Shown piece by piece: positions 13,509 through 39,306 of a stretch of 64,000 nucleotides of DNA; position 1 is the stretch's first letter; each line of letters starts with the position of its first letter. Source of the stretch: the human T2T-CHM13v2.0 reference genome, Homo sapiens; NCBI RefSeq assembly GCF_009914755.1, contig NC_060930.1; one strand, given 5' to 3'. Made by a program: the position numbers and the translations under genes. The notes beneath the pieces are model-generated. The model was not told where the DNA came from. It ran no database searches and saw only the letters and a program-made list of their open reading frames with translations.

Positions 13509-13802
13509 GTTTTTTTGAGACAGGGTTTTGCTCTGTTGCCCAGGCTGGAGTTCAGTGGTACCAGCCATCGTGGCTCACTGCAGCCTCCATCTCCGTGGCT
13601 GAAGCTATCTTCGCACCTCAGCTTCCTGGGTAGCTGAGACCACAGGTGCAGGCTACCATATCCAGCTAAATTTTAAATATTTTGTAGAGATAGGGTCTCA
13701 CTAGGTTGCCCAGTCTGGTCTCAAACTCCTGGGCTCAAATGGTCCTCCCACCTCAGCCTCCCAAAGTGCTGAGATTACAGGTATGAGCCACCACGCATGG
13801 CC
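13509..13802 (-). mobile_element. AluJ
   Basis: Antisense Alu with gctcactgcagcctcc and ctcctgggctcaa; TSD gtgat(a/t)cttgttt. Confidence 0.93.
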
Positions 13803-13974
13803 GTGATTCTTGTTTAAATATTCTCTATCTATATTGGGGTAGGTTCAAATCTAAATACTAAAAATTCTGCTATTTTATTTTCACACAACCAAAGGTTGCG
13901 AAACATAGTTTTGAAAAGATAAAATGCTATGACATGACTGAGAATTACAACACTGGTAATTTGGAGAGGCAATA

Positions 13975-14200
13975 CTACTCAGTGAAGAAAGACCAGTCTT
14001 AGAGGCAAATAGTTCTGGGTTCAAATCCCAGCTCCATCCTTTAGCTGCTTGACCTTATGAGAGGTATAAAATTTTTTTTTAAAAAATTGCTAATTCATCG
14101 GCAAAGTGCGAAAAATATTACCTATTTTTCTAGGTAAAAAATGCATTTATAGTACTTGACACATAGTATATTATCAACAAATATCATTTATTATTATTTT
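13975..14200 (+). mobile_element. MIR SINE
   Basis: ctgggttcaaatcccagctcc...gaccttatg...gtacttgacacatagta. Confidence 0.7.
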
Positions 14201-14246
14201 ACTTCAGCTCACTTGTCCTGTTAATTACCATTAAGAACTCAGGCAC

Positions 14247-15578
14247 CAGGATAAGAATCAACACAGCTGTATTGCCTGGTGATAAAAATGGCTCACTAGG
14301 CTGGGTGCGGCAGCTCACGCGTGTAATCCCAGCACTTTGGGAGGCTGAGGCCTGTGGAATGCTTGAGCTCAGGAGTTCAAGACCAGCCTGGGCAACATGG
14401 TGAAACCCTGTCTGTACAAAAACACAAAAAAAATTTAGCCAGGTATGGTGGCAGGTGCCTGTAATCCCAGCTACTCAGGCGACTGAGGTGGGATGATCAT
14501 TCAAACCCAGGGGCAGAGGTTGCAGTGAGCTGTGATCCTGCCACTGCACTCCAGACTGGGTAACGGTGACAGAGCAAAACTCTGTCTAAAAAAACAAACA
14601 AAACAAAACCAGGCTCACTAGTTGGGAACGTATGTGACCCTACTGTAAATGAGTGGAAATGGACTAAGGGGCAGCACTCACTAGACTAGTACTGCTACCA
14701 GCAACCTGGACCAGCATAGTGGCTGAACCTAGTGTCTCTCCCAAAGATGGAAAAATTTGGGTAAAAAGTGGAGAAAAGGAAGAATAATAGCTGAGGGTAA
14801 AGAAATGAATAAATAGGTTATAAATGGAGGGGCATCCAATATTACATTATCAACTCTAAATAGCCTCAGAGCAAGAGATGGCCTTATCTCTTAGCTCAGT
14901 GATTCCAGATGCCTGAAAGGGTGAAGCTGTGTGTTTGCCGAGACCACTCCTGCTTTTGGAACCTGACGAGATTGAAGGAAAGTCTACAAACTTGAGTGGC
15001 CTCACCCTGGGAGACATTCAGACAATATGATGGACTGGACTACTTATTAAAAATTGTGTACATTCATTTTGCCATAAGGGATATGTGGTCCACAACCAGG
15101 GTGTGACCTGTGGTGTTATGACATATATTCTGGTTTTTGTTATATATTTGGTTTCCTGGCTTGTAACTCCCATAGCCCTTGTCATGGTCTTGCTATAATG
15201 TGGAGTGTGTTAGGCCTCAGGGGCAGGCCTCAGGAAATGGAATCTCTCTCACCTTCTCCTACCTTCCTTTCACCTGCCCCAAGGCAGGACTCTAATATTC
15301 TCCTACCTTTCTGACTGTAGGTCATAAGATCCTCCCCAGAGAGGGTCCAGCTTTATACCCTGGGAGAAGAAATGTTGGCTTTATGAAGCTTCCATAAAAA
15401 CCCAAGAGGACTGGGTTTGGGGAGCTTCTGGATAGCTGAACACAAGGGGGTTCCTGTTATGCCCAGGGAGGGCATGGAAGTGCTGCACCCCTTCCCCCAT
15501 ACCTTTCTCTAGGCATCTTTTCATCTGTATCCTTCGTAATATCCTTTATAATAAACTGGTGCATATATTAAAAAAAAA
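14247..15578 (+). mobile_element. ERVL (MER21/LTR47-type) processed retrocopy: 3' internal region + U3-R LTR + poly-A
   Basis: 14-bp exact TSD aagaactcaggcac (14233-14246, 15577-15590); degenerate dUTPase-like and integrase-C-terminal-like codons; LTR starts TGTGGTGTTATG at 15109; AATAAA at 15550 and A-tail from 15570. Confidence 0.8.
14299..14608 (+). mobile_element. AluJb-like, inserted into the ERVL internal region
   Basis: Full-length sense Alu; TSD core ggctcacta on both sides. Confidence 0.93.
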
Positions 15579-16404
15579 GAACTCAGGCACATATCTCAAA
15601 TCTTCTCTTTTGGATCTCAGTGTGAAAAGTACAGCTAATAATTATACACATCTGATTATAAGGACTGTTACAAGACTTCAAGTCAATAAGGTACCATATC
15701 AGTATAAAGTCCTAAGTATAAAGTACTATGGAATATAAACACAGAAAATATTTTTCAAACTCAAAGAATAGATGAAAATTGGCAATGGCAGAGGTCCAGG
15801 GAAGGGAATTATACCAAGTTGTCATTATGGGTTTATTTACTATTCGTTCTTTTTCTGGAAACATGGAGAACTTATCATTTACAAATTAAAGGAAAGCCAC
15901 ATTTAATAGTGCTTTTCAAAAAAATTCAAAAGAGAGACTTTAGTTGGCACGCCACATAACCAAAATAATATGTATATCAGTAACTCTCCAGACATCAAAG
16001 TTTCTATTCAGTAACTAGTTACTCTGTCTATCATTTTAGGGATCTTGCCTGTTTGGCTTTAGCTGGTGATCTTTTTTCTTTCTTTCTTATTTTAGCTAAT
16101 GGATAGAGGTATCGCTACTTCCTGGGTTTCTGGTGGTTCTGAACCTTGGCCCACAAATGTGCTAAAGTATAAAATGAACGCTTTGGCATTCTGTTTTAGG
16201 CATATTATGAGAGAAAGAGACCATGTCCAAAGGTCACACTGAGATCCTTAGGGAGAAAAAGCTCAGGGTAGAAAGATGGGATGTCAGAGGAGCCCCTGGC
16301 CCTGGTACAGGTTACGTCCCGACTTGTGAGTCTGTTGTGCCACTTACAAGAAAGTCATCTTATTTTTTTTCTTACTTTCTTCTTTAAAAAACAAAAGATG
16401 ATAA

Positions 16405-37570: not shown

Positions 37571-39306
<1,736 letters not shown>

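What the first reader, a model, noticed from the sequence alone, without database searches (positions are those of the whole stretch)
14233..15590. Endogenous retrovirus (ERVL, MER21/LTR47-type) mRNA apparently retroposed by L1 machinery
Seen: the element starts mid-internal region with no 5' LTR and runs into an LTR at 15109. It stops 14 nt after AATAAA (15550) in an A-run, so U5 and the terminal CA are absent. It is bracketed by an exact 14-bp TSD (aagaactcaggcac) whose left copy follows TT, giving a TT|AAGA L1-endonuclease-like site. Established: retroviral integrase makes 4-6-bp TSDs and complete LTRs, whereas 5' truncation, a poly-A tail and a long TSD mark target-primed reverse transcription; processed ERV copies of this kind are well known for HERV-W. 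Inference: this ERVL lineage also spread in trans via L1, and the copy marks the LTR's real polyadenylation site. I cannot tell whether this has been described for this family.
Basis: partly seen in the sequence, partly recalled or inferred. Interest (0 to 1): 0.75.

Follow-up and report, generated by a model that had tools for sequence, protein, structure and literature searches.

The report
L1-copied MER21 retrovirus RNAs
This 1.3-kb piece of human DNA is the tail end of an old endogenous retrovirus that stops at its poly(A) signal between two exact 14-base repeats, many of its relatives across the genome end the same way, and they were likely pasted in from RNA by the LINE-1 machinery, a route that a review calls unique to one other viral family (HERV-W).

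Summary
Observation confirmed. The element has an exact 14-bp target-site duplication (TSD) after TT, a 5' cut inside the internal region, U3-R, AATAAA, a short A-run and no U5. Relatives show the LTR normally runs about 360 nt further. The LTR belongs to the MER21 family (B likely), with class III (ERVL) marks: a tRNA-Leu primer site and 5-bp TSDs at solo LTRs.

The case is not isolated. Of 30 loci sharing the internal part, 20 lack U5 and end A-rich, 5 keep U5 and 5 are undecidable. Three copies are full mRNA images (R-U5...U3-R-polyA). 11 of 21 copies with both ends in hand have significant TSDs. A-tailed ends are 13-fold commoner than in a MaLR control (8 of 351 versus 9 of 5013). About 150-nt R-only copies also exist.

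The mechanism is known from HERV-W, which a 2017 review calls the sole such group. Six paper searches found no report for MER21. Dfam/Repbase notes and primate empty sites could not be checked. Verdict: a second, older, class III family spread partly by L1. The locus itself is dead DNA.

The parts
14231..14236 (+). L1-endonuclease-like nick site, TT|AAGA
   Evidence: sequence; TT/AAAA motif as described for HERV-W copies
14233..14246 (+). left copy of 14-bp target-site duplication
14247..14298 (+). 5'-truncated start of the MER21 internal region; homology from 14249, first two bases unmatched
14290..14299 (+). left copy of the Alu's own 9-10-bp duplication
14300..14611 (+). Alu inserted later into the retrocopy (AluJ-like by recalled diagnostics, not tested)
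14612..15108 (+). 3' end of the MER21 internal region (74-79% identical to full-length matches), ending in a purine-rich tract before the LTR; no Pfam domain in three frames
15109..15418 (+). U3 of the 3' LTR, TATA-like CATAAAA at 15393-15399
15419..15569 (+). R region, from the inferred transcription start (the position where three full-length and two R-only copies begin) to the cleavage point; AATAAA at 15550-15555
15570..15578 (+). remnant poly(A) tail, 9 A, last two shared with the duplication; U5 (about 350 nt) absent
15577..15590 (+). right copy of 14-bp target-site duplication

Best explanation
The element is the 3' 1.0 kb of a roughly 5-kb MER21-family retroviral unit, ending at the LTR poly(A) site between 14-bp repeats, and it was likely inserted when L1 proteins reverse-transcribed the polyadenylated viral RNA at a TT|AAGA nick and stopped early. 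Shown: the anatomy; the missing U5; that 20 of 30 internal-bearing relatives have the same 3' end; three full mRNA images; long TSDs; the later Alu. Inferred: L1 as the enzyme; an age of roughly 50-85 million years; that the family was non-autonomous (no reverse-transcriptase remnant recognised by eye); and that it spread by two routes at once, integrase-made proviruses (about nine in ten LTR ends, now mostly solo LTRs) and L1-made copies (about one in ten). L1-made copies would dominate the surviving internal sequence because they lack two long LTRs to recombine. The locus has no 5' promoter or open gene and is likely inert.
For: Locus anatomy. Natural LTR continues about 360 nt. 20 of 30 internal-bearing loci lack U5 and end A-rich, 5 keep U5, 5 undecidable. 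5' ends are staggered. 3 of 8 loci extended upstream begin at LTR position about 300, some 25 nt after the TATA-like box, giving R-U5...U3-R-polyA. TSD score above the cross-pair null (p<=0.05) in 11 of 21 copies, about 1 expected. Rejoined flanks of L032 and L049 align without a break to other repeat copies, L1-like by my reading, a proxy for the empty site. An 8-A run follows the poly(A) motif at 8 of 351 MER21-type sites versus 9 of 5013 MaLR-type sites, odds ratio 13, p=4e-6. Looser counts: 38 A-ended versus 410 U5-continued. Processed and U5 copies are intermixed in a star-like tree (8 changes versus 8.6 shuffled).
Against: No orthologous empty site was seen; the rejoined-flank proxy gave nothing for this locus and for 8 other of 11 tested. 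10 of 21 copies show no significant TSD, including full-length L033 and L045. I set the 5' boundaries by hand after seeing the sequences, which flatters the test. Tails are decayed in 5 of the 20 (L049, L055, L056, L058, L059). The 30 loci are the best matches to a processed copy out of 153 candidates, not a random sample. Of the 38 A-ended motif hits 16 were read; one of these (L076) and one more (also in the list) keep U5. Only one control family was tested. The nick site has one departure from TT/AAAA. Protein searches found no retroviral domain.
Confidence: 0.93

Rival explanations
1. The locus is an ordinary provirus whose 5' part and U5 were later deleted, and the flanking repeat and A-run are chance.
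For: Old copies do lose pieces (L036, L044); the tail is only 7-9 A.
Against: The exact 14-mer abuts both breakpoints; 16 of 17 copies end within +11 to +15 of the same signal; full mRNA images exist.
Confidence: 0.03
2. L1 copying is real here, but MER21 is not special: every well-expressed old ERV leaves such copies, and HERV-W's uniqueness is only a matter of who looked. This concerns the family-level claim, not the locus.
For: The MaLR control has 9 A-tailed hits, three at one position. HERV-H and HML-2 retrocopies are in print (PMC3590776). A nomenclature paper lists L1 retrotransposition as a general ERV fate (PMC6114882). A large HERV survey did not separate processed copies from proviruses (PMC4724089).
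Against: The MER21 rate is 13-fold that of the one control; 20 of 25 decidable internal-bearing copies are processed.
Confidence: 0.35
3. The copy comes from a host or read-through transcript that ended at a MER21 provirus's poly(A) site (3' transduction or a processed host lncRNA), not from a viral transcript.
For: MER21C is among the LTRs most used as host poly(A) sites (PMC2553571); this copy is 5'-truncated, so its promoter is unknown.
Against: Only MER21 sequence lies between the repeats; full-length relatives start at the LTR's own start site; no near-identical source locus was found, best LTR match 81% and best internal full-length match 79%.
Confidence: 0.04

Closest known systems
HERV-W (HERV17/LTR17) processed pseudogenes
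   Same: R-U5 5' end or 5' truncation, U3-R 3' end, poly(A), TT/AAAA-type site, 5-15-bp TSD; about two thirds of internal-bearing members (135 of 213 in PMC5016936; PMC5537654; passages read). Here 20 of 30.
   Different: HERV-W is a class I group dated 25 to over 40 Myr. This family has a tRNA-Leu primer site, 5-bp integrase TSDs, a roughly 5-kb deleted genome, an older date (roughly 50-85 Myr) and R-only mini-copies. PMC5537654 calls HERV-W the sole group so mobilised.
Retroposed HERV-K(HML-2) rec-like locus 2q32.1 and HERV-H spliced retrocopies
   Same: L1 hallmarks on an ERV mRNA (PMC3590776, passages).
   Different: Single or sporadic loci as far as those passages go; here dozens of loci.
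MER21A LTR promoter of CYP19A1 (placental exon I.1)
   Same: 66-81% identical to these LTRs in 5' U3, the TATA/start region and the U5 end; located with a published primer (PMC2750107); named MER21A in PMC4419796.
   Different: It has about 110 extra bases in U3 and a different R, so the window's LTR is a sister subfamily, likely MER21B (subfamily name from recalled lengths). It is a complete LTR used as a promoter.
SVA / SINE-R
   Same: An LTR-derived, poly(A)-ended unit moved by L1 in trans (recalled; SVA dependence on L1).
   Different: SVA is a composite with its own master genes; here the substrate is the plain ERV RNA and there is no sign that copies were recopied.

Membership tests
L1-processed ERV pseudogene (HERV-W type) | 3' LTR is U3-R without U5 | tested here: met
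L1-processed ERV pseudogene (HERV-W type) | poly(A) tail shortly after the poly(A) signal | tested here: met
   9 A starting 14 nt after AATAAA; short
L1-processed ERV pseudogene (HERV-W type) | 5-15-bp TSD at a TT/AAAA-like site | tested here: met
   exact 14 bp, TT|AAGA
L1-processed ERV pseudogene (HERV-W type) | 5' end is R-U5 or truncated | tested here: met
   truncated here; R-U5 in L033, L045 and an R start in L048
L1-processed ERV pseudogene (HERV-W type) | orthologous empty site holds one copy of the TSD | not testable with these tools
   no other primate genome is held; flank-rejoining proxy positive for 2 of 11 copies, silent for this locus
MER21 LTR family | sequence similarity to a named MER21 LTR | tested here: met
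   66-81% to the CYP19A1 LTR named MER21A in print
MER21 LTR family | Dfam/RepeatMasker subfamily assignment (A, B or C) | not testable with these tools
   no repeat library on hand; B is a recalled guess from the roughly 800-bp length
Class III / ERVL | primer-binding site for tRNA-Leu | tested here: met
   18-nt site after the 5' LTR of provirus L042; its 15 gene-encoded bases match 7 genomic sites with a tRNA T-loop; ARAGORN of 4 fetched tRNA-Leu(CAA), and the other 2 Gly and Pro over the same span. That Leu marks class III is recalled.
Class III / ERVL | 5-bp integrase TSD | tested here: met
   read by eye: 4 of 16 solo LTRs exact 5 bp, 6 with one mismatch, 6 unclear. The 5-bp versus 4-bp rule is recalled.
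Class III / ERVL | pol sequence grouping with ERV-L | tested here: inconclusive
   no Pfam, homolog or PDB hit to a retroviral protein; RNase H- and integrase-like words (WFTDGS, WWAE, VLTGIDT) seen resemble ERV-L by recall only
ERV1 / HEPSI (Repbase filing of MER21) | 4-bp TSD and a class I primer site | tested here: not met
   filing in PMC5753468 and PMC2553571; searches give 5 bp and Leu

The most novel reading that the evidence does not exclude
MER21 is a second ERV family spread in bulk by L1, the first of class III and older than HERV-W. Its LTR also made a 150-nt RNA that starts and is polyadenylated inside one LTR, which L1 scattered as a SINE-like R-only element now likely annotated as broken solo LTRs. 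MER21 versus HERV-W versus MaLR would then make the open question of why L1 picks some retroviral RNAs directly testable.
Probability: 0.45. Interest if true: 0.72.

Novelty: new member of a known kind. Interest (0 to 1): 0.55.

Why it matters
A 2017 review states that HERV-W is the sole HERV group mobilised by L1 and that the determinants are unknown (PMC5537654). A second family with a similar share of processed copies, from another class and an earlier period, would overturn that statement and give a comparison set. It also maps the MER21 start and poly(A) sites from fossils, which bears on MER21 LTRs used as placental promoters (CYP19A1, HSD17B1). It means that many annotated MER21 internal pieces lack a promoter, and that LTR-LTR dating does not apply to them. 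The locus itself has no sign of function.

Tried and rejected
Natural LTR end at this position: rejected. U5 displaced nearby: no match in the window. Alu carried in the source RNA: rejected, absent from relatives and has its own duplication. One master gene for all processed copies: not supported, but the tree is poorly resolved, 1 starred branch of 27. Protein classification of the internal region: no result from Pfam, the protein database or PDB. Splicing as the cause of the shared R-to-internal deletion in L048 and L047: junctions differ, one fits GT-AG and one does not; left open. A paper search for the length of aromatase exon I.1, to confirm the start site, found nothing. Pavlicek et al. 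2002 was not held, so whether it surveyed other families is unknown to me. The bacterial promoter scan was irrelevant. No supplements were read; the poly(A) position for MER21C is in a supplementary figure of PMC2553571 that I did not see.

Full report
Observation. The sequence and repeat scan confirm an exact 14-bp repeat at 14233-14246 and 15577-15590, preceded by TT. Across the window, 6 of 6250 box pairs at the same spacing share an exact 14-mer: three are this repeat and three lie in a masked repeat at 37640-37850. Homology to relatives begins at 14249 in 8 of 9 comparisons. The LTR begins at 15109, AATAAA is at 15550, and 9 A follow at 15570-15578. It is absent from those 9 relatives, and the nearby Alu of L036 is a separate insertion. 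The original insert was about 1.0 kb.

The LTR does not end here by nature. A genome search with the LTR gave 41 matches from 40 of 2121 candidates scored; 30 loci were fetched. Of the 29 besides this one, 26 continue past AATAAA, up to about 360 nt. The other three (L002, L007, L029) stop in A-rich sequence and are the only ones with internal sequence upstream. No U5 match exists in the window.

Family. A published primer for the placental aromatase exon (PMC2750107, passage read) matches one site on chromosome 15. The LTR there is 66-81% identical to these LTRs in three blocks, with about 110 extra bases in U3 and another R. PMC4419796 names the CYP19A1 LTR MER21A and lists MER21A as primate-specific (passages). 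The window's LTR is thus MER21-family; MER21B is my recalled guess. The Repbase review files MER21 under ERV1 (PMC5753468, passages). My tests point to class III. Provirus L042 has a primer site complementary to tRNA-Leu(CAA) (2 of 4 fetched tRNA loci were called Leu). Solo LTRs show 5-bp duplications (4 exact, 6 with one mismatch, 6 unclear of 16; by eye). Protein searches found no retroviral domain. The RNase H- and integrase-like words resemble ERV-L by recall only, and I recognised no reverse transcriptase. One full-length copy spans 4.7 kb to its poly(A) signal and has a deletion of about 270 bp relative to others.

The route is systematic. A search with the internal part scored 40 of 153 candidates; 30 loci were fetched. 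Twenty, this one included, lack U5 and end A-rich; five keep U5; five are undecidable because of later insertions or deletions. Five of the twenty tails are decayed. The sample is ranked by likeness to a processed copy and is not random. 5' ends are staggered. Eight loci were extended upstream. Three begin at LTR position about 300, some 25 nt after a TATA-like box (L033, L045, L048). One is a provirus with two LTRs (L042), one begins inside U5 (L034), one carries an R piece joined to internal sequence (L047), and two are cut by other insertions. In 16 of 17 copies the A-run starts +11 to +15 after the hexamer. Of 21 copies with both ends in hand, 11 have a TSD above the cross-pair null at p<=0.05 and 10 do not; boundaries were hand-set. 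Rejoined flanks align without a break to other repeat copies for 2 of 11 loci, not for this one.

Share and control. With exact motifs, 7 loci are A-ended, of which L076 keeps U5, against 48 that continue into U5. With two mismatches the counts are 38 against 410; 16 of the 38 were read, 15 lack U5, and one unread hit is also in the U5 list. So about one LTR end in ten is processed; tail decay would lower the count, unread false hits would raise it. With one rule for both families (8 A within 25 nt of the motif), MER21-type sites give 8 of 351 and MaLR-type sites 9 of 5013: odds ratio 13, p=4e-6. The route therefore exists at a low rate in another class III family and is much commoner here. 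Only one control was run.

R-only copies. Of 9 A-ended loci found by the motif alone and lacking U5, 8 are under 200 nt. L077 and L084 begin at the same start as the full-length copies; L089 and L091 begin within about 10 nt of it; L087 begins about 15 nt in; L074 and L086 are 40-50-nt tips; L090 begins 20 nt inside U3; L088 carries U3. TSDs are significant for L074, L077, L086, L087 and L090, not for L084, L089, L091. The clustering at the start site suggests a 150-nt RNA begun and polyadenylated in one LTR. Recombination or a template jump between the two R copies of a full-length retrocopy would give the same structure, and I cannot separate these.

Age. The tree of the shared internal stretch is star-like, with median end branches of 0.12 and processed and U5 copies intermixed. 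The two LTRs of L042 differ by 18.7%. This gives 49-83 Myr, using 0.13% per Myr from PMC5016936 or a recalled 0.22%. HERV-W is dated 25 to over 40 Myr.

Mechanism. Shown: anatomy, repetition across the genome, mRNA-shaped copies. From established knowledge: poly(A), long variable TSDs, TT/AAAA-type sites and 5' truncation mark L1 target-primed reverse transcription, while retroviral integrase gives whole LTRs and short fixed TSDs. Inferred: MER21 RNA in the early primate germ line was both packaged by a helper retrovirus and taken up by L1; L1-made copies kept their internal sequence because they cannot collapse to a solo LTR as easily.

Known and new. The kind is known. PMC5537654 calls HERV-W the sole group mobilised by L1 and says the determinants are unclear (passages). 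PMC12386078 gives HERV-W as its example (passages). PMC3590776 reports an HML-2 case and cites HERV-H (passages). PMC6114882 lists L1 copying as a general fate of ERVs (passages). PMC4724089 did not separate processed copies and does not mention MER21 in its main text (passages). PMC2553571 ranks MER21C among LTRs that supply poly(A) sites (passage). Searches (listings, with passages of the papers named here and of PMC11359688 and PMC11007075) showed no report of MER21 or ERVL retrocopies as a class. The library lacks most subscription papers, Pavlicek 2002 was not held, and Dfam and Repbase notes could not be read.

Verdict. Locus interpretation 0.93. New member of a known kind. Interest 0.55, resting on the family-level pattern and not on this dead copy.

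Noticed in passing
L077:1385-1550; L084:1374-1536; L087, L089, L091: About 150-nt R-only MER21 copies running from the start site to a poly(A) tail, some with long TSDs; SINE-like in form.
   Followed up: partly
L067:4385-4750 (upstream of L048) and L068:3760-3960 (upstream of L047): Two processed copies share a deletion of about 2.9 kb from R into nearly the same internal position, with different junctions; one fits a GT-AG splice, one does not.
   Followed up: partly
L052 (oriented 1980-2370): The same internal region is joined to a different LTR type that shares only the R-side block, so this internal sequence pairs with more than one LTR.
   Followed up: no
L050 (oriented about 1235-1305): A piece of about 50-70 nt spanning the MER21 poly(A) signal and U5 start is inserted inside the internal region.
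   Followed up: no
G000:C23:84006701 (+) and 84007316 (-), locus L041: An A-tailed end and an inverted second one lie about 600 bp apart.
   Followed up: no
L066:161-350: An inverted internal segment lies just upstream of the 5' end of copy L034; possibly a twin-priming inversion.
   Followed up: no
G000:C5:54238096, C5:101463122, C6:82872125: Three MaLR-type LTR ends switch to an A-run at the same base, likely rare processed MaLR copies marking that family's poly(A) site.
   Followed up: no
L040 (oriented 2637-2950) and L055 (oriented 2470-2630): Alu-type elements inserted at or in the A-rich tail of processed MER21 copies.
   Followed up: partly
window 13960-14230 and 15640-15760: Flanks look like decayed MIR and L2 pieces (recalled resemblance, not tested); a further Alu lies on the minus strand at about 13510-13805.
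   Followed up: no
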